From Pseudomonadales bacterium (GTDB lineage: Bacteria > Pseudomonadota > Gammaproteobacteria > Pseudomonadales > Pseudohongiellaceae), in contig JAJEGU010000006.1 of NCBI GenBank assembly GCA_022819645.1, positions 6,620 to 70,619 on the forward strand: a stretch of DNA of 64,000 nucleotides, in the 5' to 3' direction. A program made the position numbers and the translations under genes. Positions within the stretch are counted from its first letter, which is position 1. Every line of letters starts with the position of its first letter. Positions 3,532-16,021 of this stretch are shown here, piece by piece. Below the pieces are notes generated by a model, which was given only the letters and a program-made list of their open reading frames with translations, made no database searches and was not told the origin of the DNA.

Positions 3532-3703
3532 CGGTTTGTTGCCTCTCGCGCGAATCCGTCGGCAAGTATAGCAATTTGCCGCGAGACATGTTCAATGAGG
3601 ATGTCAAGCAGTAAAGGCGAACCGTACATAGAATTGAGTATTTACGGCGTCATCCACACGCCCCGCCAGCAGACGGAGACGCATCGAAGCCACAAACCCA
3701 CCT

Positions 3704-4660
3704 TCAAATGCAGTCAGTGGTAAAGGCAAGCACATCGCCGATGGTATCCGCCCCACCAAGCAGCATCAGCAGGCGGTCCACACCGAAAGCGACACCGCTG
3801 CATTCGGGCAGGCCGTGTTCCATTGCCGCCAGCAGTTTTTCATCGATTTCGGGAACGGGGCGGCCAAGTTCGGCGCGCCTTTGCCGTTCGCGCTCGAATC
3901 TGGCGCGCAGCTTCTCCGCATCGGTTTCCTCGTCGTAGCCGTTGGCGAGTTCCATGCCCCGACAGAACAACTCGAAGCGCCGGGCCACCGGCTCGCCTTC
4001 CCGACCCGGCCCGATTCGGGCAAGTGCCGCCTGGGCCGCCGGGTAGTCGTAAACGAAGCAATACTCGGGAAATTGCGGTTCAATCACCTGGCCGAGCAAC
4101 AATTGCAGACAGTCCGTGGCGTCGAGTCCGGAGACGTCCACCGGCAGTCTTTGCCGGGTAAGCCCCCGCAATACTTCGAGTTCGACCCGGTGCGGGTCGA
4201 AGCCGAGATGCTCCAGGAAAACCTCGCGATAGCGCAGGCGCGGAATCGTGGCTTGCGGCAGAAACTCCCGCAGCAGGTCTGCGACTTCGTCCATGAGCTG
4301 TTCCAGGCGGAACCCGGGGCGATACCATTCGAGCAGCGTGAATTCCGGATTGTGCCGAGCGCCGGCGTCGCCCTGGCGGAAAGCCTTGCCCATCTGGTAA
4401 CAGGCGCCGCTGCCCGCGGCGAGCAGGCGTTTCATGGCGTATTCGGGCGAGGTTTGCAGGTAGAAGACTTGTGGCTGTCCCGCAAGTTCCACGCTGGCGG
4501 GAATTGAGTCGATATGGACATCGGTAACCGTGGTCGGGGCGAACAGCGGGGTTTCCACTTCGAGCACATCCCGCCCGGCGAAAAATCGGCGAATTCCTGC
4601 GAGGGTTTCGGCCCGCAGTCTCAGTATTTCCGGCCTTGCGCCGGGGCGCCATTCTGTCAC
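3704..4660 (-). CDS. epmA: elongation factor P--(R)-beta-lysine ligase (class II LysRS-like, PoxA/GenX)
   Basis: Class II aaRS core motifs are present: LEVETPLF, YLQTSPEYAMKRLL, FRQGDAGARHNPEFTLLEWY, ELANGY, GVAFGVDRLLML. I place the start at GTG 4660, just after the efp stop (4672). The longer track ORF would run through efp. Confidence 0.9.
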   Translation of the reverse strand: MTEWRPGARPEILRLRAETLAGIRRFFAGRDVLEVETPLFAPTTVTDVHIDSIPASVELAGQPQVFYLQTSPEYAMKRLLAAGSGACYQMGKAFRQGDAGARHNPEFTLLEWYRPGFRLEQLMDEVADLLREFLPQATIPRLRYREVFLEHLGFDPHRVELEVLRGLTRQRLPVDVSGLDATDCLQLLLGQVIEPQFPEYCFVYDYPAAQAALARIGPGREGEPVARRFELFCRGMELANGYDEETDAEKLRARFERERQRRAELGRPVPEIDEKLLAAMEHGLPECSGVAFGVDRLLMLLGGADTIGDVLAFTTDCI

Positions 4661-4671
4661 GGTGGCGAAGC

Positions 4672-5244
4672 CTAGCGGCTGACCCGGTTCTGGTACTCCC
4701 CGGTTCGGGTATCCACCCGCAGCACGTCGCCTTCGTTGACGAACAGGGGCACCTTGACCACGGCGCCGGAACTCAGGGTGGCGGGCTTGGATCCGCCCTG
4801 GGCGGTGTCGCCCTTGAGGCCGGGGTCGGTTTCGGTGACTTCGAGTTCGACGAAATTGGGTGGAATCACCGAGATGGGATTGTCGTTCCACAGCACGACC
4901 TGATACGCCTCCTGGGGTTTCAGCCAGTTTTTCGCCTCGCTGATGGCGCTGGCGTCGGCGGCGAGTTGTTCGTAGCTGCCGTCGGTTTTCATGAAATGCC
5001 AGAATTCGCCGTCTTCGTAGAGATACTCCATGTCGATTTCGAGCACGTCGGCGCCGGGCAGCGATTCGCCGGACTTGAAGGTGCGCTCCCAGACGCGGCC
5101 ATTGAGCAGATTGCGGAACTTGACTCGATTGAAAGCCTGGCCCTTGCCGGGCTTGACGAATTCGTTTTCCAGAATCGAGCAGGGTTCGCCGTCCACCAGC
5201 AGTTTCAGACCGCCCTTGAACTCGTTGGTTGAATAGGATGTCAT
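4672..5244 (-). CDS. efp: elongation factor P
   Basis: Starts [49 protein letters not shown] and contains the KPGKGQA loop with the modified Lys. About 190 aa from ATG 5244. The upstream extension in the track ORF is unlikely. Confidence 0.95.
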
Positions 5245-5287
5245 AGCATTTCCCCTGTTTCTCTTTGTTGCCTGGTGCGCTGCCAAC

Positions 5288-6286
5288 ATGCTCCCAGCCA
5301 GTGAGTCAGCCGCGGATTGGCGGCAATCCCTCTCCGATCTGATTACCGATCCCCGGGAGCTTGCCGATTTCCTGCAACTCGACCAGCGGCAAAATCCGGC
5401 CGGTGAACTGGCGCTCAGGCAGTTTCCGCTGAAGGTGCCGCGGGGCTTCGCCGCGCGCATGGAAAAAGGCAACTGGCGGGACCCGCTGCTGCGGCAGGTG
5501 TGGCCCGCCGCCGCCGAAGAGCGCGCCGCGCCGGGCTTTGTGGCCGACCCGCTGCGGGAGCGCCATTATAATCCGCGGCCCGGGCTGCTGCACAAGTATC
5601 GGGGCAGGGCGCTGCTGATCGCCGCGCCGCATTGCGCGATTCACTGCCGCTACTGTTTCCGCCGCGAATTCGATTACCAGGGCAATACGCCGGGCCGACG
5701 CGATTGGCTCGCGGCGCTGGGCTATATCCGGGACGACGCCAGCATCGTGGAAGTGATTCTCAGCGGGGGCGACCCTCTGGCGCTGGCGGACCGGCAACTC
5801 GGCTGGCTTATCGAGGCCATTGCCGACATTTCCCATGTAAGCACCCTGCGCATCCACACCCGTTTGCCCGTGGTGATTCCCGAGCGGGTCACGGCGGAAT
5901 TGCTGGCCATGCTCGCCCAAAGCAGGCCCCGGGTCGTGGTGGTCATTCATTGCAATCATGGCCGGGAAATCGACTCCCGGGTCGCCGCCGCGCTGGGGGC
6001 CCTGCATGGGAACGGAAGCACCCTGCTCAATCAGACGGTGCTGCTCAGGGGAGTCAATGACGAGGCAAGCACACTTTTTTCGCTCTCAATGCGGCTTTTT
6101 TCAGAAAATGTACTACCTTATTACCTGCACCTGCCGGATCGGGTCGCGGGAACCTCACATTTTCAGGTAGACCTAGACTCCGCCCTGGCGATCATGGGGG
6201 AGTTGCAGGCGTCCCTCCCCGGCTATCTGGTGCCCCGCCTCGTGCGGGAAGAACCGGGCCAGCCTGCGAAAACGCGAATGTCATGA
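5288..6286 (+). CDS. epmB: EF-P beta-lysylation radical-SAM lysine 2,3-aminomutase
   Basis: Has the [13 protein letters not shown] radical-SAM cluster motif and lysine 2,3-aminomutase-like sequence. It is divergent from efp-epmA, which is the usual synteny. Confidence 0.9.
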
Positions 6287-6307
6287 ACTGAAGAGGAGAA
6301 TCTGTCC

Positions 6308-7594
6308 ATGGACGGGTCCCTGCAATCTGAAGCGGCGCAATTGCCGAACGAATATCTCGACGCACTCACCGGCCTGCCGAACCGGGCCTTTCTTGAAAAC
6401 GCACTCAGTCAGGCGCTGGCCGATGGTGGGCCGGCCACGCTGGCGCTGTTGCAACTGGAAAACTTCTACGAGATCCGCTCCTGGGTGGGCAAGTCCGATG
6501 CAAGTTTCGTGCTCTGTGATGTGGCAAGGCTGCTGGCGAAGAATCTGCCCCCGGGCATTTCCCTGTGCCGCTGCGAAAACTACGAGTTTGCCCTGCTCCT
6601 GCTCAATGAGGAAAGCGTCCGGGCCCGGCAGATAACCGACCGGATCAAGCAGGCCCTGCAGACTACGGTTTCCGAATCGATTCCGTCCCGGATTGAACTC
6701 AAGTGCGCAGTGGGTCTGGCCGCTGTGGAGCCCGGCGTGAGCGGGCCGGAAGTGATGTTTGCCCGGGCCAGGCACCAGTTGCGCGTCGCCCTGTTCCGCC
6801 GCCACGGCGAAAGCTGCCTTTCCACCATGCACGAAGTCGATGGATTCGACCCCGTGGAGCTTGGCCCCGCGCTGGGGCGCCAGCCGCTGGCGCTGAATTT
6901 CCAGCCCATCGTCAGCCTGCTGCCGGACGGCGTGGAACGCTATGAGGTACGTTGCCGGTTGCCATTGGAAAACCGCCGTCTTGCGCCTCTACGGTTATTT
7001 GAAATCGCGGTGCGGAATGCTCTCGGCGGCATTATCGACCGGCAACTGTGCCGCCGTGGGCTTGGCGTCCTGCGGGAAAGCGGCAAACCCTCGCTATGTC
7101 TTTTTGTCAATCTGACCCTGAACTCGCTGGTGGACCCGGATTTCTACCGCTGGCTCGAGGCCGAGCTCGCCCCGGTGCCGCATCTTGCCCGGCAACTCGT
7201 CTTGCAGGTCAGCGAGATAGACGTGCTGGTGGCCCAGCACCACGTGCAATACTTCTGCGAACACCTGGCCCGGCTCGAAGTTCGCCTTGCCATCAGCCAT
7301 TTCGGCTTCACCGACAACCCTTTCCGCTATCTGCCGCTGCTGAACGTCGATTTCATGAAGATCAACCTGTCCGGGGGAAACCGGGCCGGCGCCGACCGCA
7401 AGCAGGCGCAGGCTCTTCTGCGGGGATTGCAGGATACCGGGCTAGAGGTGATTGCCGCCCTGGTGGAAGACATGGACGACTTGCCCTGGTTGTGGCGCGC
7501 CGGGGCAAGGCTTACCCAGGGTTTTTGCCTTGCCAGGCCCAATGCCGGGTTGACATACGAGTTTCCCCGAGAGATGGCCGTCCGCGCCGCCTGA
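6308..7594 (+). CDS. signalling protein with degenerate GGDEF and degenerate EAL domains
   Basis: The N-terminal half opens LDALTGLPNRAFL but has ENYEF where GGDEF is expected. The C-terminal half has the EAL fold (FQPIVSL...YEVRCR, VNLT, QVSE, MKIN, TQGF). It has SHFGF in place of DDFG and LVED in place of EGVE. Confidence 0.8.
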   Translation: MDGSLQSEAAQLPNEYLDALTGLPNRAFLENALSQALADGGPATLALLQLENFYEIRSWVGKSDASFVLCDVARLLAKNLPPGISLCRCENYEFALLLLNEESVRARQITDRIKQALQTTVSESIPSRIELKCAVGLAAVEPGVSGPEVMFARARHQLRVALFRRHGESCLSTMHEVDGFDPVELGPALGRQPLALNFQPIVSLLPDGVERYEVRCRLPLENRRLAPLRLFEIAVRNALGGIIDRQLCRRGLGVLRESGKPSLCLFVNLTLNSLVDPDFYRWLEAELAPVPHLARQLVLQVSEIDVLVAQHHVQYFCEHLARLEVRLAISHFGFTDNPFRYLPLLNVDFMKINLSGGNRAGADRKQAQALLRGLQDTGLEVIAALVEDMDDLPWLWRAGARLTQGFCLARPNAGLTYEFPREMAVRAA

Positions 7595-7638
7595 GGCTTT
7601 CGATTGCCAACATTGGCAGCGGCAATTATGCTCGCGCT

Positions 7639-8964
7639 ATGAAGTCCACCCGCATTGGTTCGCGCATTTCCCTGATTGCCTGTATCGCCTTGTTGCTGGC
7701 CATGAGCCTGTTCTGGCTGATCAGCAGCTACCATACGCGGCAGGTGCTCCAGGCCCAGGCGGACCAGCTTGGCCCCACCATTGCGCGGCAGGCGGCGGAA
7801 TTGCTCGCCGAGCACGTCGAGGCCGATGACCTCATCAGTATCAATGTCATTCTGGAAGAATTGGCGGCGGACCCGGCGGTCATCGAAGCCAGCCTGCTCG
7901 ATGAACAGGGGCAAAGCGTGGCGGTGGCGGGCAACCCCAATACCGTATCCTCCATTGCCTTGCTCACGCGACCGATGCTGCGGGAGGAGTATTACACCCG
8001 CAGCATTCAGTTTTTCGGCGCCGATCAGGGTACCGTCAGCGTTGCCCTGGATCTCGGCTATCTGCAGGCAACCCTGAACGACAATCTGCTGCTTGTGGGC
8101 GGCGCCACCCTCGTCATGCTGCTGGTCACCTGGATTTTTCTCGCAATCTATTGCCAGGTCGCGCTTGGTTTTCCGCTCAATCTGCTGGGTTGGTCCCTGG
8201 GCAAGATCAGGCGCGGAGAAATCGCCGAGTGCCCCGAACCCACCGGGCATGATGAAGTGGCCAATCTTACCCGGCAATACAATGCCACGGCGAAGTTTCT
8301 GTCTCGCAACACTTTTCTGGACCCGCTCAACGAGGAATCCCGGGAGCCGGACTTGCCGGAAGGGCAAGCGGTGGATCTCAGCGTACTCGTAATTCGCATG
8401 AGCAACTATTTCTCGCTGTCCACCGCCATGGGCCGGGAACAGGTGCTGCAATTGCTCGATCGTTACTACGTCCTCGCCGGCCAGGTGGGCCGGATCTACA
8501 ATGGCCGCGTCTGTTACTGCCACGAAGAGGAGATTTTCATTGCCTTCGACCGCAGCGCAGCCAGCGAGGAACAAGCCTATTACGCCATCTGCGCGGGGCT
8601 GCTGTTTCTTCGCCTGATTCCCCACCTCAATAAGCTTCCCGGCGTCGCCGGCGCCAGTTTCGGCCTCGTCGCCCACAGCGGCAAGCTGGAGGCAAGACTG
8701 TATTCACCCATCAGCGGCGCCAACGACAGCCTGATCGGCGAGGCTCCCGATCAGGCGCGGCGCATCTGCAACGACTGTCCCGATAACGCCCTGCTGCTCA
8801 GCCCGGAGTGCTACCAGCTCGCCGGCGCCGACTCCCGGATCAACGCTGAAGCCTTCAACGACCCGGACACCGAAGACCCGGCCCTCATCGCCCTCGCCCC
8901 GCCCGAGGAACTCGACGAGCTCCTCAACCTCCAGGCCAGCCGCCTTGCGGCATGCTTAGACTGA
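7639..8964 (+). CDS. membrane signalling protein: N-terminal TM, periplasmic region, second TM, HAMP-like linker, degenerate GGDEF/class III cyclase-like domain
   Basis: The start MKSTRIGSRISLIACIALLLAMSLFWLI is chosen over the Arg/Pro-rich upstream extension of track ORF 7048. There is a HAMP-like segment (GHDEVANLTRQYNATAKFL). The C-terminal LSVLVIRMSNYFSLS...CHEEEIFIAF aligns with the nucleotidyl-cyclase/GGDEF fold but lacks the canonical Asp and GGDEF residues. Confidence 0.65.
   Translation: MKSTRIGSRISLIACIALLLAMSLFWLISSYHTRQVLQAQADQLGPTIARQAAELLAEHVEADDLISINVILEELAADPAVIEASLLDEQGQSVAVAGNPNTVSSIALLTRPMLREEYYTRSIQFFGADQGTVSVALDLGYLQATLNDNLLLVGGATLVMLLVTWIFLAIYCQVALGFPLNLLGWSLGKIRRGEIAECPEPTGHDEVANLTRQYNATAKFLSRNTFLDPLNEESREPDLPEGQAVDLSVLVIRMSNYFSLSTAMGREQVLQLLDRYYVLAGQVGRIYNGRVCYCHEEEIFIAFDRSAASEEQAYYAICAGLLFLRLIPHLNKLPGVAGASFGLVAHSGKLEARLYSPISGANDSLIGEAPDQARRICNDCPDNALLLSPECYQLAGADSRINAEAFNDPDTEDPALIALAPPEELDELLNLQASRLAACLD
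8886..8948 (+). repeat. direct repeat copy A (3' coding end of the CDS 7639..8964)
   Basis: A 63-nt stretch matches 10993..11055 at 53 of 63 positions by my hand alignment. It encodes IALAPPEELDELLNLQASRLA. Confidence 0.85.
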
Positions 8965-8969
8965 TGAAG

Positions 8970-8998
8970 TTGAATACTGTGCATACATACAGTATCTT
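8970..8998 (+). promoter_or_regulatory. sigma70-type promoter with an embedded LexA (SOS) box
   Basis: TTGAAT (8970-8975), a 17-nt spacer, then TATCTT (8993-8998). The spacer and flanks contain TACTGTGCATACATACAGTA (8975-8994). That sequence fits CTGT-N8-ACAG and the gammaproteobacterial consensus TACTGTATATATATACAGTA. It lies about 115 nt upstream of ATG 9110. Confidence 0.6.
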
Positions 8999-9109
8999 TC
9001 AGGGAAATTCGTTATTCACAAGATAATCACAGTGCGCTAACGGATTATCCTTTGACGAAGAGTTGAGTACAGCATAAATTGAATTTACTAATTGAGAGGA
9101 CTGGGTAGC

Positions 9110-9925
9110 ATGGGCGGACCATTGGGAAATGTGGACAGAATACAAGTAGCAACTGCTACGAGGCCAGATCGGAAGCTGAACACCCGCAAGGGAATTGCTG
9201 GGCGTGCATTACTTCGTACTGACCATGGCCCCAAACAAGGGTATCTAAAGCTTTTGGATGTCCAAGGGATAGCCAAGGAATCCCTGTGCTGGGCACTGTC
9301 CCGTTGTTTGGGATTGCCTATACCACAAGCATATTACGTCTATGCAAACCCGAATGACCTTTCAGAATTATCGCCTCGCAACAAATTTTGCTTAGCATTT
9401 GGAACGGAAGAAATGGAATTTTCGCGAGATCGAATTGAGAATAGAAAGGTAATTGAAAGCAAGTTATTTGAATGGGAGTTTTCATTACAATGTGGAGTTT
9501 TTGATGAATGGATTGTTAACGGGGACAGAATTCCTAATAACTTATTGTATTCAAGCCACGGGAAGTTTACTTTGATCGATCATGATGAAGTTTTGCCCAC
9601 GCATGCTTCCGTCGACAGTCATTCAATCTCAGAAGTTCTGAAAAGACTAAGTCAGAACAGCACTGAATCTGCGAAGCATAACTTGTTTGAAAGAACAAAG
9701 CTATTTGTTCTGAGGATTCAAAGAATTGACTGGGAAAGGATTCGCCAAATGATTATAGTAGAAAATGTACCTGAAGTTCAATGGGATATGTTTATGGGCC
9801 ACAAAAATTTCCTTATGCAACGCGCAAAAATTTTACCCGAAGTGCTGCATTTAAGTCTAGGAATTTCACAAACCGAGCTATTAATAGGTGATGATACTCA
9901 ACAAGGGTGGGAGAAAATCCAATGA
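9110..9925 (+). CDS. HipA-like / PI3-4-kinase-fold protein kinase (putative)
   Basis: RBS GAGAGGA (9094-9100) precedes ATG 9110. The motif FDEWIVNGDRIPNNLLYSSHGKFTLIDHDEVL fits the catalytic loop (DRxxxN) and the metal-binding IDH(D/G) of the HipA-like kinase fold. Upstream are QGYLKLL (candidate ATP Lys) and ESLCWALSRCLGLPIPQAYYV. The sequence is AT-rich. Confidence 0.6.
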   Translation: MGGPLGNVDRIQVATATRPDRKLNTRKGIAGRALLRTDHGPKQGYLKLLDVQGIAKESLCWALSRCLGLPIPQAYYVYANPNDLSELSPRNKFCLAFGTEEMEFSRDRIENRKVIESKLFEWEFSLQCGVFDEWIVNGDRIPNNLLYSSHGKFTLIDHDEVLPTHASVDSHSISEVLKRLSQNSTESAKHNLFERTKLFVLRIQRIDWERIRQMIIVENVPEVQWDMFMGHKNFLMQRAKILPEVLHLSLGISQTELLIGDDTQQGWEKIQ

Positions 9926-10782
9926 GGTTTGGTTTTCCTGATCCACCCAATTTTGGGTTCTCTTGGCGAAATTTATTTGTCGAACCTGTACCTTTTTCCG
10001 GAGAAAAAATTTCAGTTGCAGCTATTGTTAAAACTGATGACGGGACTCTTATCGTTCCCAAGTTCGTATCGAGGCATAAATTTCGAAGCTTGTTCGGTGC
10101 TAGATTTAGTGCCCATGTTTCAGATATGCTCGAAATATGTATTGAATGCGCTGAAGAGCATTTCCAGAAAAACCCGATATACCTTGACTGGAAGCCACCG
10201 ATTAGCAGTTTCCATATTGGAGAGACAGAACACTCAATGGCAGTGGACTTGGAAGAAGCAGTATTGATAGTTGGGAAGTGCTGCTCTTCTATTTTTGTTT
10301 CAGAGAAAACTAGCCAAACCGCATTTCCGGGACTGAAAAAGTTACCTCCATTCCATAGGATTTGGGAATCCGAGATTAGATCGAGTGTAGGAATGCATCG
10401 TTCTTCCTTTGAAATCAATTTTGACAAATGTGTATATTTGAAAGAGGGTGGCGTTCGATTAAATTTCGGTTTTCTTTCTGAAAAATATGTTGCACAGTTT
10501 GAAGCAGTATCTAAACCTTCATCACTCCAAAGCGCTCTAGTTCGAGCTCAAGCTAAACTTTGGCAGCTTGATCTTCTAAGAAATGAGAAAGATATTTTCG
10601 GAGTTCCGAATTGCGAGTTGCTTCTTGGGTTGCCACAATCGGAGAAAGCAGGAAGAAACAAGACGATTATGGAGTTCGTGGAAGAACTGAAGTACGAAGC
10701 ATCGAAAAGAGAATTGAAAGTTTACACAGCTAGTTCACCTACTGAAGCGGCAATGCATCTAATTGAAAAAGCTGCGGCTTGA
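9922..10782 (+). CDS. unknown-function partner protein (N-terminus DUF3037-like)
   Basis: ATG 9922 overlaps the kinase stop (ATGA at 9922-9925), with RBS GGTGGGAG 8 nt upstream. The protein is 286 aa. The N-terminus WRNLFVEPVPFSGEKISVAAIVKTDDG recalls the opening pattern of DUF3037. I found no catalytic motif. Confidence 0.55.
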   Translation: MRFGFPDPPNFGFSWRNLFVEPVPFSGEKISVAAIVKTDDGTLIVPKFVSRHKFRSLFGARFSAHVSDMLEICIECAEEHFQKNPIYLDWKPPISSFHIGETEHSMAVDLEEAVLIVGKCCSSIFVSEKTSQTAFPGLKKLPPFHRIWESEIRSSVGMHRSSFEINFDKCVYLKEGGVRLNFGFLSEKYVAQFEAVSKPSSLQSALVRAQAKLWQLDLLRNEKDIFGVPNCELLLGLPQSEKAGRNKTIMEFVEELKYEASKRELKVYTASSPTEAAMHLIEKAAA

Positions 10783-10844
10783 AGAACCTGCGCTAGTAAA
10801 ACAAGGTAATCACATACCTAACCCAAATATTGCACGAGCCCATT

Positions 10845-10869
10845 GATTCGGCCCTGAATCGGTGTTTTT
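10845..10869 (+). terminator. weak intrinsic-terminator-like hairpin after the island operon
   Basis: GATTC (10845-10849), loop GGCCCT, GAATC (10856-10860), then GGTGTTTTT. The stem is only 5 bp, so this is tentative. Confidence 0.25.
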
Positions 10870-10992
10870 CGCGCCTTGCCGAGGCGTGACGGTTTCGGCC
10901 TGACCGAAACGGGACCAGAGTTTCCCTTGTCCGCTTCCTTTCGGGTGGGGCAGCCGCTAATCCCATAATCGATCGTTCCTGCAACGGTGTCC

Positions 10993-11063
10993 CATCGCTC
11001 TCGCCCCACCCGAAGAGCTCGATGAGCTACTCAACCTGCAAGCCACTCGCCTTGCCACCCGGT
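10993..11063 (+). pseudogene. displaced duplicate of the 3' end of the CDS 7639..8964 (direct repeat copy B)
   Basis: Reads IALAPPEELDELLNLQATRLATR* in frame. The matching part, 10993..11055, is 53/63 identical to 8886..8948. Eight of the differences are synonymous third-position changes and one codon is changed (Ser to Thr). No upstream coding continuation exists. Confidence 0.75.
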
Positions 11064-11200
11064 AATCGGACTTCCCGGTGACCCCGCTCCGCCGCCCGCC
11101 TGTCATCCAAATGTGAACCACGGGCCGAACCCCCGGGCACTTGTGAGACTGGTGTAGAATGATCCGCTATTTTCACGGGATTGCTGGAGGAGTTTCATCG

Positions 11201-12655
11201 ATGAAGCGGATTTGCGGATGGATTGGCCAGACAGGGCTGTTACTGGCTCTCGTTTCATTCACTCAGACGGCTCGGGCCGCCGAGGCGGTGGCGGGCCTCG
11301 ATCTTACGGGCAGTGGCCTCGGCATCGCCGCGCTGGTGTTGTTTGTGCTCGCCTATGCCCTGGTGATCAGCGAAGAGAACATTCATCTGCGCAAATCGAA
11401 ACCCGTGGTGGTTGCCGCCGGCGTGATCTGGATTCTGGTGGCGCTGGCCTATTCAGCCGCTGGTGAGTCTGCGCTGGTGGAAGAGCTGGTTTCCCACAAC
11501 CTGCTGGAATTCGTCGAACTGTTCCTCTTTCTGCTCGCGGCGATGACCTATATCAACACCATGGAAGAGCGGGGCATCTTCAACCTGTTGCGGGCAAAGC
11601 TTGTCAGCGCGGGATTTTCCCTGCGCAAGCTGTTCTGGATTACCGGGCTGATTTCCTTCTGCATGTCGCCACTGGCGGACAATCTCACCACCGCCCTGCT
11701 CATGGCCGCCGTGGTGGTTTCCATTGGCGGCGACAATACCCGCTTCGTCGTTCTCGGCTGCATCAATGTGGTGGTGGCGGCCAATGCCGGGGGCGTTTTC
11801 AGCCCCTTCGGAGACATCACCACCCTGATGATCTGGCAGGCGGGATACGTCCAGTTCCAGGAGTTTTTCGTGCTGGTGATTCCATCCATCGTGAACTGGG
11901 TGGTCACCGCCGGGATCATGAGTTTTGCGGTTTCCCATGAAAAACCCGCGGCAATCGAGGAAAAGGCCGAGGTGAAATTCGGCGGCTGGGTGGTGGTGGG
12001 GCTGTTCGGCATGACCATCGCCATGGCGGTGAGCTTCCACAACTTCCTGCACCTGCCGCCGGTGCTCGGCATGATGACCGGTCTTGGCATACTCAAGCTG
12101 TATGGCTACTACCTGCAAATGCGCGACGCCGGCTACATGGGCTCGGCCACATCACTGGTCAGCGGCGACGCCGCCATGTTCGGCGATTCCATGCTGGAAG
12201 ACGAAATCGAGGGTCGCGAGCAGCCCTACAATATTTTCCACAATCTCCAGCGGGCCGAGTGGGACACGCTGATCTTCTTCTACGGGATTATTCTCTGCGT
12301 TGGCGGGCTCGGCGCCTTTGGCTATCTCGCGGTGGTTTCCGAATTCACCTATGAAGGCCTGGGGCCCACGGTGGCCAATGTGCTGGTGGGATTCGCCTCG
12401 GCGCTGATCGACAACATTCCGGTCATGTTCGCCGTACTCGAAATGTCGCCGGAGATGGACCTGTTCCAGTGGCTGCTGATTACCCTGACCGCCGGCGCCG
12501 GCGGCTCCATGCTGTCGATCGGCTCGGCGGCGGGCGTAGCCGTCATGGGGCAGGCGCGGGGCGTGTATACCTTCTTTTCCCACCTGAAATGGAGCTGGGC
12601 GATCATGCTCGGCTACTTCGCCAGCATCGGCGCCCATTTCTTGCTCAATGGCTGA
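11201..12655 (+). CDS. nhaD: NhaD-type Na+/H+ antiporter (ArsB/NhaD permease superfamily)
   Basis: RBS GGAGGA lies 8 nt before ATG 11201. The product is a polytopic membrane protein with an N-terminal signal-like segment. It has an NhaD-like opening (LGIAALVLFVLAYALVISEENIHLRKSKPVVVAAGVIW) and the C-terminal repeat ALIDNIPV. The family call is from memory of NhaD sequences. Confidence 0.75.
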   Translation: MKRICGWIGQTGLLLALVSFTQTARAAEAVAGLDLTGSGLGIAALVLFVLAYALVISEENIHLRKSKPVVVAAGVIWILVALAYSAAGESALVEELVSHNLLEFVELFLFLLAAMTYINTMEERGIFNLLRAKLVSAGFSLRKLFWITGLISFCMSPLADNLTTALLMAAVVVSIGGDNTRFVVLGCINVVVAANAGGVFSPFGDITTLMIWQAGYVQFQEFFVLVIPSIVNWVVTAGIMSFAVSHEKPAAIEEKAEVKFGGWVVVGLFGMTIAMAVSFHNFLHLPPVLGMMTGLGILKLYGYYLQMRDAGYMGSATSLVSGDAAMFGDSMLEDEIEGREQPYNIFHNLQRAEWDTLIFFYGIILCVGGLGAFGYLAVVSEFTYEGLGPTVANVLVGFASALIDNIPVMFAVLEMSPEMDLFQWLLITLTAGAGGSMLSIGSAAGVAVMGQARGVYTFFSHLKWSWAIMLGYFASIGAHFLLNG

Positions 12656-12681: not shown

Positions 12682-14151
12682 TCAGTCGGCGCCCGCCACC
12701 TCAAGCAGTACGCGGTAGATCATTTCGGTTCCCTCGGCGAGGGATTGCACCGAAACCCGCTCATCATTGCCATGCATGCGGGAAAGATCATCCTGGTCGA
12801 TGGGGTAGGGATAAATGCCGTACACCGGAACGTCCCGGTTACGCCAGGCGCTGGCGTCGGTGCCGGCCTGAAACAGATAGGAAGTGACCAGGGCTTCGGG
12901 GTATTGCTCCCGGGCGGAGTCCGCCAGTGCCTGGTACAACTCGGTGTCTTCGGGAGACGGCTGCTGCGTGGATCTTTGCTGCAGTCTTGCCAGCGCCTCC
13001 TGCTGGCTTTCGCCGGCGCTGGTGGAAATCTCCACCGAGATGGCCGGATCGGCGGTTACCCGGCGGATTTCCCTGATAAAGGCCGCAACGTCCGTGCCCG
13101 GAATCAGGCGAAAATTGACCAGTACGCTGGCGGTGCCGGGAATGACATTGGTGCGGAAGCCGCCCTCGATTATCACCGGCGCCACGGTATTGCGCATGAA
13201 GGCCCGCAGCAGCGGATCAACGCCGATGGCCCGGTCGGCCTGGGCCACCCGGGCCGCATCGGTTCCCGCAAGCAGGTCTTCAAACCAGGTGCGTTCGGGC
13301 TCCCCGGCGGTCTCGGCCAGAGTCTGGAAGAACTGCCGCGTAATCGGAATCAGTTGTATGCCGGTGTCGTGGCGCGAGAGTTTGTCCAGCGCCCGGGCGA
13401 GGGCGAAGATGGCATTGTCCGGGCGCGGCATGGACGAATGGATGCTGTGCCCGGAGGCGGTGATGCGCAGGGTAAGGAAGAACTTGTCGGCGGTGGAAAT
13501 GCTTACGTAGCGCACCTCGTCGGAATCACGGCGCTTGATGATCCAGCCGCCTTCGTTCAGCGCGAACTCGGCGTCGATCAGGTGCCAGTGGTCCCGGGCC
13601 AGCCAGCCCGTGCCGTAGCTGCCGCCCTCTTCATCGGCTTCCGCCAGAAAGATCACGTCCCGGGCCAGGGGAACCTCATCCCTGGCAAGCCGCATGACGG
13701 CTTCGGCGAATACCGCAAGCCCGCCCTTGAAATCTATCGCTCCCCGGCCATGGACATAGCCATTGACGATATCGCCGGCGAATGGTTCCTGGGTCCACAA
13801 GTCGCGCTCCACTCCCACCACATCGGCATGGGCGGCGAGCAGCAGGGGCCTTTTGGAACCGTCGCCGCGCAGCCTGGCGATGAAATGCGCCTTGCCGGGA
13901 ACGGGCGTCTCGATAATGGATACTTCAAATCCGAGCGTCTCGAACCTGGGCCGTAGCAGTTCGGCCAACTCGCCTTCATTGCCCGGTGGGTTGGAAGTGT
14001 CCACCCAAATGAGCTCCCGCAGCAGTTCCGCCGCGGGATTGGTTTGTGTTTGGGCCTGGGCCTGCAGGGTGAGCACGCTCAGGGCGGCGATTGCAAGGTA
14101 TCCGGTGATTTTCATGATGGGACTCGGCGGAAAAAACTGAATATGTTTCAT
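12682..14151 (-). CDS. secreted M20/M25/M40-family metallopeptidase
   Basis: Motifs LLLAAHADVV, GRGAIDFKGG and LAEADEEGG match the M20 metal-binding pattern (H, D, EE). There is a signal peptide MKITGYLAIAALSVLTLQAQA. The first ATG overlaps the upstream stop (ATGA at 14148-14151). An alternative start is at 14115. Confidence 0.85.
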   Translation of the reverse strand: MKHIQFFPPSPIMKITGYLAIAALSVLTLQAQAQTQTNPAAELLRELIWVDTSNPPGNEGELAELLRPRFETLGFEVSIIETPVPGKAHFIARLRGDGSKRPLLLAAHADVVGVERDLWTQEPFAGDIVNGYVHGRGAIDFKGGLAVFAEAVMRLARDEVPLARDVIFLAEADEEGGSYGTGWLARDHWHLIDAEFALNEGGWIIKRRDSDEVRYVSISTADKFFLTLRITASGHSIHSSMPRPDNAIFALARALDKLSRHDTGIQLIPITRQFFQTLAETAGEPERTWFEDLLAGTDAARVAQADRAIGVDPLLRAFMRNTVAPVIIEGGFRTNVIPGTASVLVNFRLIPGTDVAAFIREIRRVTADPAISVEISTSAGESQQEALARLQQRSTQQPSPEDTELYQALADSAREQYPEALVTSYLFQAGTDASAWRNRDVPVYGIYPYPIDQDDLSRMHGNDERVSVQSLAEGTEMIYRVLLEVAGAD

Positions 14152-14585
14152 TTTGCGGACACGCGGATGCCGAAAGGATCGATTTCGATCAGCACCCGGG
14201 ACATTTCAGTGATGTCCACCGGCGCGGCTTCCGAGGCTTCGTGTTCCGCGAAAACCAGCACCCGGATGGCTTCCCCGGCGCGTTTCGGCAGGGTCGGGCG
14301 GGCTGAATCAAAGCCCTGGGGGATGAAGGTGCTCACCAGATCAAAGGCTTCGCCCAACTCCCGGGTCAGTGACCGGCGATTGGCGTACCAGGCAGATTTG
14401 GTTGCGGGAATTTGCGCGGCGGTAGCCTCGTCATAGAGAAACAGCACATCGATGCCGGTAATTTCGATGGCGTTGGGGTCAAGACGCGAACGAATCAGGA
14501 TGGATTCAACGGCTGCGGCAGCCTGGGCCGAGCAACAGATCAGCAGCAGAACCGTCAGCGCTTTTTGCAGCATTGCCAGCTTCAC
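14148..14585 (-). CDS. secreted hypothetical protein
   Basis: 145 aa with a signal peptide MKLAMLQKALTVLLLICCSAQAAAA. It is coupled to the downstream M20 gene. No family recognised. Confidence 0.55.
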   Translation of the reverse strand: MKLAMLQKALTVLLLICCSAQAAAAVESILIRSRLDPNAIEITGIDVLFLYDEATAAQIPATKSAWYANRRSLTRELGEAFDLVSTFIPQGFDSARPTLPKRAGEAIRVLVFAEHEASEAAPVDITEMSRVLIEIDPFGIRVSAK

Positions 14586-15692: not shown

Positions 15693-15733
15693 GGGAACCT
15701 CCAAAAGTGTCTGGTTTTTCGAAATTTGGCGCC

Positions 15734-15886
15734 AGGAGCCTGCGCCACAGGAATTCACGGCTGCAAATCCGCTCTCATCCACGCCCCGGGCCGCTCGATT
15801 TCGTTGCATATTTGCCTCAATCGATCAGCCAGGGGCGCGGCGACAGCGAATTTTCGCTTTCGCGAATTCCTGTGGCGCAGGCTCCT
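15734..15886. repeat. 153-bp MITE/REP-like element with perfect 23-bp terminal inverted repeats (repeat family 2)
   Basis: AGGAGCCTGCGCCACAGGAATTC at 15734-15756 has its exact reverse complement at 15864-15886. It is intergenic, between divergent genes. Confidence 0.8.
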
Positions 15887-16021
15887 AGCCACCGAAAGTA
15901 CGCGGGTTCAGTGTTGAATTCAAGGACGAATTCGCGCTATCAACCAAACGTATGGACAAGCACCGGCGCGGCTTTTATGCTTCGCCCATTCAGAACATGC
16001 AATTTCCCGAGGAGGCCCACC

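What the first reader, a model, noticed from the sequence alone, without database searches (positions are those of the whole stretch)
8886..11063. A 2-kb AT-rich insertion in a gene's 3' end, bracketed by a diverged direct repeat that re-encodes the C-terminus, with no integrase
The last 63 nt of conserved coding sequence of the signalling gene (8886-8948, IALAPPEELDELLNLQASRLA) recur at 10993-11055 (IALAPPEELDELLNLQATRLA, then TR*).

By hand alignment, 53 of 63 nt are identical. Eight of the differences are synonymous third-position changes, and one codon differs (AGC Ser versus ACT Thr). That pattern suggests both copies evolved as coding sequence in different lineages. This is what happens when an integrative element carries its own replacement for the target gene's end.

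The sequence between the copies is strongly AT-rich. Line 9361-9420 has 22 G+C of 60, against 43 of 60 for 8881-8940. Yet the insert carries only the two-gene operon. I see no integrase, transposase or terminal inverted repeats, so the mobilisation mechanism is unexplained.
Basis: seen in the sequence. Interest (0 to 1): 0.7.

Follow-up and report, generated by a model that had tools for sequence, protein, structure and literature searches.

The report
Recombination scar beside a kinase operon
A 2.1-kb AT-rich two-gene module (a HipA-like kinase and its partner, behind an SOS box) is present in some strains of a marine Pseudohongiella and absent in others, and the duplicated gene end next to it looks like a leftover of ordinary strain-to-strain recombination, not the footprint of a new kind of mobile element.

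Summary
The 63-nt repeat is 8886-8948 / 10993-11055, with 53/63 identical and 9 of 10 differences at third codon positions. The DNA between the copies is 42% GC against 61% for the window.

Empty sites exist, including a near-isogenic one (L024, 97-100% identical on both flanks).

The integrative-element reading does not hold:
- The gene end, its last five codons, a LexA box and the HipA_2-kinase/partner operon lie in the same order in relatives whose flanking protein is only 64-68% identical. Those relatives have no repeat, so the left "junction" is old synteny.
- The right copy plus its stop codon and downstream spacer is simply the gene end of operon-less strains.
- Only one joint is novel, at 10992/10993.
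- No integrase, transposase, terminal inverted repeats or recurrent att-like repeats were found, here or in any other copy of the module.

Best explanation: recombination between an operon-bearing and an operon-less haplotype, with one homologous and one illegitimate crossover (HFIR-like). A Campbell-type circle insertion remains possible.

The cargo resembles HipA-kinase toxin/defence pairs and also occurs in a phage immunity operon. It is an ordinary kind of event in a moderately interesting variable locus.

The parts
7639..8964 (+). Intact flanking gene G: a 441-aa YtjB/AhpA (SMP_2) family membrane protein, ending ...RLAACLD*
   Evidence: Pfam SMP_2 E 1.7e-8. NCBIfam YtjB E 5e-7, below its cut-off. 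One source names a homologue 'AhpA/YtjB family protein'. The exact product P0234 is in the public collection.
8886..8948 (+). Repeat copy 1 (E1): part of the functional gene, and the common local allele
   Evidence: Differs at 1/63 from L001 and L022 and at 2/63 from L024.
8949..8964 (+). Tail A: the last five codons plus stop (gca tgc tta gac tga). It is collinear with the ...AAYPDR* tail of distant relatives that carry the operon
   Evidence: Alignment A3. C-termini of 30 homologues.
8975..8994 (+). LexA (SOS) box TACTGTGCATACATACAGTA, overlapping a TTGAAT-N17-TATCTT promoter-like site
   Evidence: It is the only match in the 64 kb, with 0 expected by chance. The box is conserved at the same place in L007, L008 and L010-12, has one mismatch in L023, and is degenerate in L009.
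9052..9080 (+). Second promoter-like site (TTGACG-17-TAAATT). Its CTTTGAC motif is invariant in all aligned relatives
9110..9925 (+). ORF-A: a 271-aa HipA-like kinase (Pfam HipA_2)
   Evidence: HipA_2 E 8.4e-10, above the cut-off. Invariant motifs DRxPNNLL and LIDHD. phrog_3162 E 1.5e-12.
9922..10782 (+). ORF-B: a 286-aa partner protein of an undescribed family. Its start overlaps the ORF-A stop (ATGA)
   Evidence: No Pfam, NCBIfam or PADLOC hit. phrog_21150 E 4.9e-26. 578 representative clusters at E<=1e-3. AF2 model pLDDT 85.6.
10783..10992 (+). Segment X: 54% GC, non-coding, with a terminator-like hairpin at 10841-10864 followed by TTTTT. 10808-10944 is about 75% identical to an inverted segment of the related locus L006
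10992..10993 (.). The only novel (non-homologous) joint: segment X meets the start of repeat copy 2
   Evidence: Similarity to the flanking gene starts abruptly at 10993, and the upstream reading frame is closed at 10958-10960. BLAST of copy 2 against empty-site loci starts at 10993.
10993..11065 (+). Repeat copy 2 (E2, 10993-11055) plus tail B (acc cgg taa). This is an orphan 3' end of an operon-less allele of gene G and is not part of any ORF
   Evidence: 93% identical to the L003 gene end over 75 nt. The ATR* tail and the 57-nt spacer match L024 with 2 differences. Homology to L002 runs on to 11108.
11201..12655 (+). Downstream flanking gene: a CitMHS/NhaD-type transporter, syntenic in all relatives
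   Evidence: Pfam CitMHS E 6e-33. Synteny.

Best explanation
The window carries a hybrid of two haplotypes that coexist in a recombining Pseudohongiella population.

- **Operon-bearing haplotype (old):** gene G with tail A, then a LexA box, then the HipA_2 kinase, then the partner ORF-B, then segment X.
- **Operon-less haplotype:** gene G ending in tail B (..A(A/T)R*), followed directly by the spacer and the transporter gene.

A DNA exchange between the two was resolved by ordinary homologous recombination in one long flank. On the other side it was resolved by an illegitimate (non-homologous or microhomology) join between segment X and a point 70 nt before the stop codon of the operon-less gene. 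This is homology-facilitated illegitimate recombination (HFIR).

The result keeps one complete gene (with E1 and tail A). The last 23 codons of the other allele (E2 and tail B) remain as a non-functional scar. No integrase is needed.

- **Shown:** the polymorphism, the single novel joint, the allelic and coding origin of both copies, and the old synteny on the left.
- **Inferred:** the HFIR topology, and which side was imported.

The cargo is probably a LexA-repressed HipA-type kinase toxin or defence pair. That is inferred from domain, motif and context evidence only.
For: 1. **Empty sites exist.** L002, L003, L004, L022 and L024 are collinear on both sides. L024 is 97-100% identical on both flanks.
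2. **The left side is old synteny.** L007-L012 and L009 have efp, epmB, GGDEF/EAL, G, (kinase), ORF-B, transporter in the same order, with G only 64-68% identical and no repeat. Gene end, tail A, LexA box and promoter region align base by base.
3. **E2, tail B and the spacer are the native end of operon-less alleles.** Intact genes carry the ATR* tail (P0243 = L024) and the QATRLA variant (P0237 = L003). E2 positions 30-63 are identical to L003. The tail and spacer differ from L024 at 2 of 57 nt.
4. **Both copies evolved as coding sequence.** 9 of 10 E1/E2 differences are at third positions, P = 3.6e-4. The divergence (10/63) lies within the allelic range of this gene end, which is 1-12 of 63.
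5. **Recombination at this locus is pervasive.**
   - L003 carries an L004-like patch over gene G inside window-like flanks.
   - L007 and L010 have 99.1% and 99.5% identical flanks, but their operons match only in short patches of 66-75% identity.
   - L001 is an L006-type operon reduced to 169 nt. One of its deletion ends shows GCA(A) microhomology by eye.
6. **No mobility genes or signatures were found.** The flanks are collinear core genes. No terminal inverted repeats appeared among the listed inverted-repeat pairs. No flanking repeats were found around other copies of the module.
7. **Precedent in the literature.** HFIR has been shown experimentally, as summarised in PMC3240628. It has been proposed for T6SS immunity arrays and Rhs orphan ends (PMC5361080).
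Against: - No sampled operon-less genome has the complete E2 sequence. Only its 3' 34 nt and its tail are seen in intact genes.
- The nearest empty-site genome, L024, has an E1-like repeat. Relative to L024 the divergent copy therefore sits at the right end of the extra DNA. E2 plus tail A in circular permutation would rebuild a complete operon-linked gene end. This fits a Campbell-type insertion of a circle equally well.
- E2 (84% to E1) and the operon (88% to L006) are similarly divergent, which could mean they came from one donor.
- Microhomology at the joint cannot be checked, because the parental sequence beyond X is unknown.
- Natural competence of the host is unknown.
Confidence: 0.5

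Rival explanations
1. Campbell-type insertion. A donor segment (last ~70 nt of G with the E2 allele, tail A, the operon and X) was circularised by an illegitimate join, or transferred as a fragment of a tandem duplication. It then integrated into an L024-like operon-less chromosome by a single crossover near the 3' end of the 63-nt homology. RecA or a slippage-type event would do this, still without a dedicated integrase.
For: - Relative to near-isogenic L024, E1 is the resident-like copy (2/63 differences) and E2 the divergent one (10/63). E2 lies at the right end of the extra 2107 nt.
- E2 followed by tail A would rebuild a complete gene end of the operon-linked type.
- E2 (84%) and the operon (88% to L006) show similar divergence from local counterparts.
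Against: - It needs two rare steps.
- The homology is only 63 nt at 84% identity, and the longest perfect run is 8 nt. That is far below what RecA normally uses (general knowledge).
- Every part of E2 and its tail is seen in intact operon-less genes, not in operon-bearing ones.
- No circles or tandem forms were seen in the assemblies.
Confidence: 0.2
2. A true site-specific integrative element. The 2.1-kb unit would be a satellite-like cassette whose attP mimics the end of gene G. It would be integrated and excised by a recombinase encoded elsewhere (for example a Xer-type or prophage integrase), or by ORF-B itself.
For: - Empty sites are precise.
- The repeat contains a 21-nt near-palindrome, GAGGAACTCGACGAGCTCCTC (I8).
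- ORF-B has weak Foldseek similarity to XPF/Mus81/Hef nuclease domains, E 0.014-0.1.
- The module family also occurs on a phage and a plasmid.
Against: - There is no integrase or transposase in or next to the unit. The flanks are collinear core genes.
- There is no identical core longer than 8 nt.
- The left boundary is ancestral synteny shared with distant relatives that have no repeat.
- Other contexts of the module show no flanking repeats.
- Allele exchange between L007 and L010 has boundaries elsewhere: after the LexA box and about 95 nt past ORF-B.
- No relative was found in IMG/VR viral contigs.
- The nuclease-fold hits are below significance.
Confidence: 0.08
3. An in-situ duplication of the gene end within one lineage, followed by divergence or gene conversion. 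Operon-less strains would then arise by deletion between the two copies.
For: - Direct repeats can mediate precise deletion.
- The L024 tail equals the E2 tail.
- The L003 gene end equals E1[1-29] plus E2[30-63].
Against: - A non-coding copy should collect changes at all codon positions, yet 9 of 10 differences are at third positions.
- Operon-less alleles are diverse (8-10% apart), and related clades at 72-77% protein identity also lack the operon. Not all of these can descend from this structure.
- The intergenic region of L003 is L004-like on both sides of its E2-like stretch, so that stretch is a natural allele variant, not a crossover product.
- L024 and L022 carry E1-type sequence right up to the last 9 nt.
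Confidence: 0.05
4. An assembly chimera of two co-occurring strains.
For: The sequences come from metagenomes in which operon-bearing and operon-less strains coexist: samples of the KELL22-1 series, loci L016, L022 and L024.
Against: - The X|E2 joint shares no k-mer with the sequence that precedes the repeat in the intact gene.
- The same joint is present at 100% identity in an ENA scaffold and a Logan contig built by different pipelines.
Confidence: 0.03

Closest known systems
Homology-facilitated illegitimate recombination (HFIR). Described for Acinetobacter, Streptococcus pneumoniae and Pseudomonas stutzeri, and at low frequency in E. coli conjugation (PMC3240628; references in PMC5361080)
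   Same: Foreign or allelic DNA is fixed by one homologous crossover in a long anchor plus one non-homologous join. No element-encoded recombinase is involved. It leaves a single novel joint and can leave part of the resident sequence behind.
   Different: Here it is inferred from comparative genomics only. The direction of transfer, the microhomology at the joint and the competence of the host are all unknown.
C-terminal displacement with orphan remnants at Rhs/CDI loci, and sequential displacement of T6SS effector-immunity modules in Vibrio cholerae (PMC5361080)
   Same: An incoming allele with its linked cargo displaces the resident gene end downstream. The displaced end persists as an orphan fragment that resembles the functional end. 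Allelic cassettes are exchanged at a fixed chromosomal site.
   Different: The flanking gene here is a YtjB-like membrane protein, not a polymorphic toxin. The orphan is only 23 codons and has no linked immunity gene. Only one displacement is seen, not an array.
Genomic islands and satellites that integrate into the 3' end of tRNA, tmRNA or protein genes and carry a replacement 3' end
   Same: A low-GC insert lies at a gene's 3' end, bracketed by a direct repeat of that end, and precise empty sites exist in relatives.
   Different: There is no integrase and no identical core. The left junction is ancestral synteny. The functional gene keeps the resident-type repeat and takes only its last five codons from the operon-linked side. 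The repeat is absent from every other copy of the module.
HipA-family kinase two-gene systems: HipBA toxin-antitoxin, and the anti-phage system DS-6/HipAD (HipA-like kinase plus a DUF3037/DUF1829 protein; PMC13092281)
   Same: A HipA-type kinase with an intact catalytic motif is translationally coupled to a partner of about 285 aa that is not HipB-like. The pair has a patchy distribution and low GC. It sits next to RM, ParE, HicAB and transposase genes in other genomes, and inside a phage immunity operon.
   Different: The partner gives no DUF3037 or DUF1829 hit, in the window protein or in 14 relatives tested. There is no PADLOC hit. Control by a LexA box has not, to my knowledge, been described for those systems. 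No phenotype has been tested.

Membership tests
Site-specific integrative element / genomic island | Encodes, or lies next to, an integrase or other recombinase | tested here: not met
   The only two ORFs are a HipA_2 kinase and an unannotated partner. The flanks are collinear core genes in empty-site genomes.
Site-specific integrative element / genomic island | attL and attR share an identical core where strand exchange occurs | tested here: not met
   The longest identical run between the copies is 8 nt, and 10 mismatches are spread over the 63 nt.
Site-specific integrative element / genomic island | Both boundaries are novel joints relative to the empty site, and the element recurs with the same ends elsewhere | tested here: not met
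   The left boundary is synteny shared with L007-L012 and L009, without a repeat. Other contexts (L013, L014, L023, L010) lack flanking repeats.
Site-specific integrative element / genomic island | A precise empty site exists in close relatives | tested here: met
   L002, L003, L004, L022 and L024.
Transposon / IS / MITE | Terminal inverted repeats, a short target-site duplication, and a transposase or related copies elsewhere | tested here: not met
   None of the listed inverted-repeat pairs lies at the ends of the insert. Segment X and the repeat have no other copies in the window.
HFIR-type recombination scar | Exactly one non-homologous joint, with the other side continuous with homologous flanks | tested here: met
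   Only 10992/10993 is novel. E1|tail A and E2|tail B both occur as native joints in other genomes.
HFIR-type recombination scar | The retained fragment is an allele of the resident or partner gene that evolved as coding sequence | tested here: met
   Third-position bias P = 3.6e-4. The variants are seen in intact genes of L003 and L024.
HFIR-type recombination scar | Short microhomology at the illegitimate joint between the two parental sequences | not testable with these tools
   The parental sequence beyond X is not available. L006 matches X only up to 10944, and in inverted orientation.
HFIR-type recombination scar | The host takes up DNA and recombines (competence, transduction or conjugation) | not tested
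   There is only indirect evidence: pervasive mosaicism among the genomes.
HipA-family kinase toxin/defence pair (HipBA, DS-6/HipAD) | A HipA-type kinase domain with catalytic-loop and metal-binding residues | tested here: met
   HipA_2 E 8.4e-10, above the gathering cut-off. DRxPNNLL and LIDHD are invariant in six homologues.
HipA-family kinase toxin/defence pair (HipBA, DS-6/HipAD) | The partner is HipB (HTH) or a DUF3037/DUF1829 protein | tested here: not met
   No Pfam hit to these families for ORF-B or for 14 relatives, even at permissive E-values. The profile finds nothing in PDB sequences.
HipA-family kinase toxin/defence pair (HipBA, DS-6/HipAD) | Kinase-dependent toxicity or phage protection | not testable with these tools
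   This needs experiments. Context is suggestive only: RM, ParE, HicAB and transposase neighbours, and a phage cI-like operon.
LexA (SOS) regulon member | A CTGT-N8-ACAG box in the promoter region, conserved in orthologous loci | tested here: met
   A perfect TACTGT-N8-ACAGTA, unique in 64 kb with 0 expected. It is conserved in L007, L008 and L010-12 and nearly so in L023.
LexA (SOS) regulon member | LexA binding and induction by DNA damage | not testable with these tools
   This needs EMSA or expression data.

The most novel reading that the evidence does not exclude
The repeat-bracketed 2.1-kb unit could be a self-contained, integrase-free mobile cassette. On SOS induction it would loop out as a circle through the gene-end repeats and re-enter the same gene end in other cells. 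ORF-B, whose model weakly resembles XPF/Mus81-type nuclease domains, would supply the DNA-cutting or recombination activity. That would be a new class of SOS-triggered, gene-end-targeting element.
Probability: 0.04. Interest if true: 0.75.

Novelty: new member of a known kind. Interest (0 to 1): 0.3.

Why it matters
As a mobility puzzle it largely dissolves. A low-GC insert bracketed by a diverged copy of a gene end, with no integrase, can arise from ordinary recombination between strains that do and do not carry an accessory operon. Annotators of genomic islands should keep this pattern in mind before proposing new elements.

What remains of interest is the locus itself:
- A LexA-box-controlled HipA_2 kinase with a partner from an undescribed family sits at a fixed chromosomal site in Pseudohongiella-like bacteria.
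- Within one species its alleles are hyper-divergent (flanks 99% identical, operon alleles matching only in short 66-75% patches).
- It decays and is lost repeatedly.
- Relatives sit in the immunity operon of a temperate phage.

This makes it a reasonable candidate for an SOS-linked toxin or defence module that could be tested directly.

Tried and rejected
- **JGI metagenome scan.** A scan with the C-terminal 174 aa of gene G found nothing.
- **IMG/VR scan.** A scan with the ORF-B alignment found nothing.
- **Rfam.** A search of 8700-11400 gave only a spurious sub-threshold snoRNA hit.
- **PADLOC and NCBIfam.** Nothing for ORF-A or ORF-B.
- **DUF3037 idea.** I suspected ORF-B was a DUF3037 protein because of its N-terminal motif. 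This was not borne out for the window protein or 14 relatives.
- **PDB searches.** The sequence profile gave nothing useful. Foldseek gave only weak XPF/Mus81-like hits, with no hit at E <= 0.001.
- **L003 as a deletion product.** I first read the chimeric-looking L003 gene end (E1[1-29] + E2[30-63]) as proof of deletion by E1 x E2 crossover. I rejected this when L003 proved to be L004-like on both sides of that stretch and is itself the recombinant.
- **Window as an L003-like genome with an imported left patch.** I first read it this way. The pairwise matrix shows L003 is the outlier over gene G, so the direction of transfer is left open.
- **L006 437-aa gene.** The extra gene beside the operon in L006 has no family hit and gave no clue to a recombinase.
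- **Literature search for 'HipAD'.** It returned only unrelated papers.

Full report
**1.

The window has a two-copy direct repeat, 8886-8948 and 10993-11055. It is 63 nt long, 53/63 identical, with the copies 2107 nt apart. Copy 1 (E1) is the end of an intact 441-aa gene and reads IALAPPEELDELLNLQASRLAACLD*. Copy 2 (E2) lies in no ORF and reads IALAPPEELDELLNLQATRLATR*.

The ten differences are eight synonymous third-position changes plus AGC/ACT. Nine of ten are therefore at third positions, with P = 3.6e-4 under an even spread. The chance expectation for such a repeat is about 3e-14.

The DNA between the copies is 42% GC, against 61% for the window. The repeat is not dispersed. In the window and 24 related loci it occurs only at the end of this gene.

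The flanking gene is a YtjB/AhpA (SMP_2) family membrane protein, not a recognisable signalling enzyme.

**2. What lies between the copies**

In order, the insert contains:
- five codons and a stop (tail A, 8949-8964);
- a perfect LexA box, TACTGTGCATACATACAGTA (8975-8994). It is the only match in 64 kb, with 0 expected by chance;
- a promoter-like site;
- ORF-A (9110-9925), which matches Pfam HipA_2 at E 8e-10. Its DRxPNNLL and LIDHD motifs are invariant in six homologues;
- ORF-B (9922-10782), whose start overlaps the ORF-A stop. It has no Pfam, NCBIfam or PADLOC hit;
- a 210-nt segment X at 54% GC, with a terminator-like hairpin.

No integrase or transposase is present, and the inverted-repeat list shows no terminal pair.

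**3. Related genomes**

A scan of GTDB species genomes found five relatives. One is annotated as an uncultured Pseudohongiella chromosome. Look-ups of homologous proteins added more loci.

*Empty sites are real.* L002, L003, L004, L022 and L024 are collinear with the window on both sides. In them the gene ends ..RLA(A/T)R*, followed by 'taatc..'. L024 is near-isogenic: 96-99.7% identical in 300-nt windows over 3700-8800, and 96-100% in 150-nt windows over 11143-12492.

*L001 carries a decayed operon.* Only 169 nt remain, and these are 98% identical to the intact operon of L006. The window's operon is only 88% identical to L006.

**4. The left boundary is not an insertion junction**

In L007, L008, L009 and L010-L012 the YtjB-like protein is only 64-68% identical to the window's. 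Yet the same gene order is found there: efp, epmB, GGDEF/EAL, YtjB-like, (kinase), ORF-B, transporter. None of these loci has a duplicated gene end.

An alignment of the gene end and what follows shows base-by-base collinearity. The window's 'gcg gca tgc tta gac tga tga ag TTGAATACTGTG...' lines up with L007's 'gcc gcc tat cct gat cga tga aaa TTGAATACTGTG...'. Collinearity then continues through the LexA box to an invariant CTTTGAC motif.

The deep family consensus C-terminus is ..RLI(A/S)AYP(D/N)R*. The window's ..RLAACLD* is a diverged form of that.

So E1, tail A, the LexA box and the operon form an old, contiguous arrangement.

**5. The right copy is the gene end of operon-less strains**

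E2, its ATR* tail and the following spacer align with the gene end and spacer of the empty-site genomes. Homology begins abruptly at 10993.
- L024 has the same ATR* tail, and its spacer differs at 2 of 57 nt.
- The intact L003 gene has a 3' half identical to E2 positions 30-63, including the Thr codon.
- Among the eleven proteins of the 90% cluster, the tails are AACLD (window), AAR (six), AAN (three, the decayed-operon type) and ATR (L024).
- The E1/E2 distance (10/63) falls within the range among orthologous alleles (1-12 of 63).

The structure therefore has only one joint seen nowhere else: X|E2 at 10992/10993.

**6. Recombination at this locus is pervasive**

- L003 has window-like flanks (97.3% and 98.8%). 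Over the YtjB-like gene, however, it is 91% identical to the window and 97% to L004. L003 is itself a recombinant.
- L007 and L010 have flanks 99.1% and 99.5% identical, while their operons match only in short stretches at 66-75% identity. The boundaries lie just after the LexA box and about 95 nt past ORF-B. This is allelic cassette exchange at a fixed site.
- The operon is low in GC in every genome: 0.38-0.49, against 0.41-0.64 in the flanks.
- Decay is frequent. The kinase is lost in L009 and split in L023, and L001 is reduced to a stub.
- Clades at 72-77% protein identity lack the operon.

**7. Mechanism**

One novel joint together with otherwise native joints is what a single illegitimate crossover between an operon-bearing and an operon-less haplotype would leave. 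The exchange would be completed by homologous recombination in a long flank. This is homology-facilitated illegitimate recombination (HFIR). HFIR has been documented experimentally (PMC3240628). It has also been proposed for orphan gene ends at T6SS and Rhs loci (PMC5361080).

I cannot tell which side was imported.

A Campbell-type insertion of a circularised donor segment (E2, tail A, operon, X) into an L024-like chromosome fits the L024 comparison equally well. It needs two rare steps, however, and a crossover within 63 nt of 84% identity.

A dedicated site-specific element is disfavoured for five reasons:
- there is no recombinase;
- there is no identical core;
- the left side is old synteny;
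- other copies of the module (L013, L014, L023, L010) have no flanking repeats;
- no relative was found in IMG/VR viral contigs.

In-situ duplication is disfavoured by the third-position bias. Misassembly is unlikely because the joint shares no k-mer with the intact gene, and it recurs in an ENA scaffold and a Logan contig.

**8. The cargo**

- ORF-B belongs to a family of about 285-aa proteins with 578 representative clusters at E<=1e-3. It has a PHROG match (phrog_21150, E 5e-26), and ORF-A matches phrog_3162.
- A confident AlphaFold2 model (pLDDT 85.6) gave only weak Foldseek hits to XPF/Mus81/Hef nuclease domains.
- Distant versions of the pair follow a CI-like HTH gene in Alteromonas phage P24. 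They also do so in a phage-like 46.9-kb Marinobacter plasmid, where NCBI names the kinase 'HipA family kinase'.
- Other chromosomal copies sit beside a DDE transposase and AAA_14 genes (L013), a ParE toxin (L014), and an EcoO109I-type restriction-modification system with an IS1595 remnant (L023).
- A HipA-family kinase paired with a DUF3037/DUF1829 protein has been validated as an anti-phage system, DS-6/HipAD (PMC13092281). The partner here shows no such domains. It works like that kind of pair at most, and membership is not shown.
- The conserved LexA box suggests SOS control. This is inferred, not tested.

**9. Verdict**

The feature is a recombination scar at the edge of an old, strain-variable accessory operon, not a new integrase-free mobile element. 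It is a new member of a known kind, and interest is modest. What interest there is attaches mainly to the SOS-box-linked kinase module and its hyper-variable alleles.

Noticed in passing
window 8975-8994; L007 5036-5055; L010 5059-5078; L023 76-95: A perfect LexA/SOS box lies immediately after the stop of the YtjB-like gene and upstream of the kinase operon. It is conserved across distant relatives. In L023, whose downstream neighbours differ, a one-mismatch version still accompanies the module.
   Followed up: partly
L007 5071-6952 versus L010 5094-6956: Two genomes have 99.1% and 99.5% identical flanks but carry operon alleles that match only in short stretches at 66-75% identity. Their ORF-B proteins are 59% and 47% identical to the window's. 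This is a fixed-site allelic cassette replacement.
   Followed up: partly
L025 (Alteromonas phage P24, MK241539) 38-2239; L026 (Marinobacter sp. M3C plasmid NZ_CP092286) 2173-4352: Distant homologues of the pair form a three-gene operon, CI-like HTH, HipA_2 kinase and ORF-B-like, in a phage and in a phage-like plasmid. In the plasmid the operon lies next to YdaS/Cro-like, RusA and HicAB genes. The placement recalls rexAB downstream of lambda cI.
   Followed up: partly
L001 9293-9461: The Pseudohongiella chromosome OZ244788 keeps only 169 nt of an L006-type operon: the end of the kinase gene and the first 114 nt of ORF-B. Its gene tail is AAN*. The left deletion end shows GCA(A) microhomology by eye.
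   Followed up: partly
L006 1799-3501: A close relative has an extra 437-aa gene on the minus strand between ORF-B and the transporter gene. The gene has no family hit. Its upstream region holds an inverted copy (~75% identical) of window 10808-10944.
   Followed up: partly
window 12820-14165: The M20/M28 peptidase gene downstream of the transporter is absent from L003, L004 and L022 but present in L001, L002 and L024. This is a second presence/absence polymorphism 1.7 kb away.
   Followed up: no
window 15731-15888; L001 4832-4996; L003 3696-3859; L004 3680-3849: A ~160-nt element downstream in the window recurs at 86-88% identity upstream of efp in the relatives, in both orientations. It looks like a small dispersed or MITE-like repeat.
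   Followed up: no
L002 9337-9415; L003 9335-9460; L018 6330-6640: Palindromic REP-like units ('gtcatcctgcgc...gcgcagaatgac') fill the spacer of the empty-site genomes but not the window. L018 has three tandem ~95-nt repeats after the gene.
   Followed up: no
L003 ~7720-9500 (window equivalent ~7370-11110): L003 carries an L004-like patch (97% identical) over the YtjB-like gene and the spacer, inside flanks that are 97-99% identical to the window. This is a clear recent recombination tract.
   Followed up: yes
window 9922-10782 (ORF-B model m5f5934d0426c): A confident two-domain model has only weak similarity to XPF/Mus81/Hef nuclease domains. ORF-B relatives form 578 representative clusters at E<=1e-3, and neither ORF-B nor the 14 relatives tested matches any Pfam model for this protein.
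   Followed up: partly
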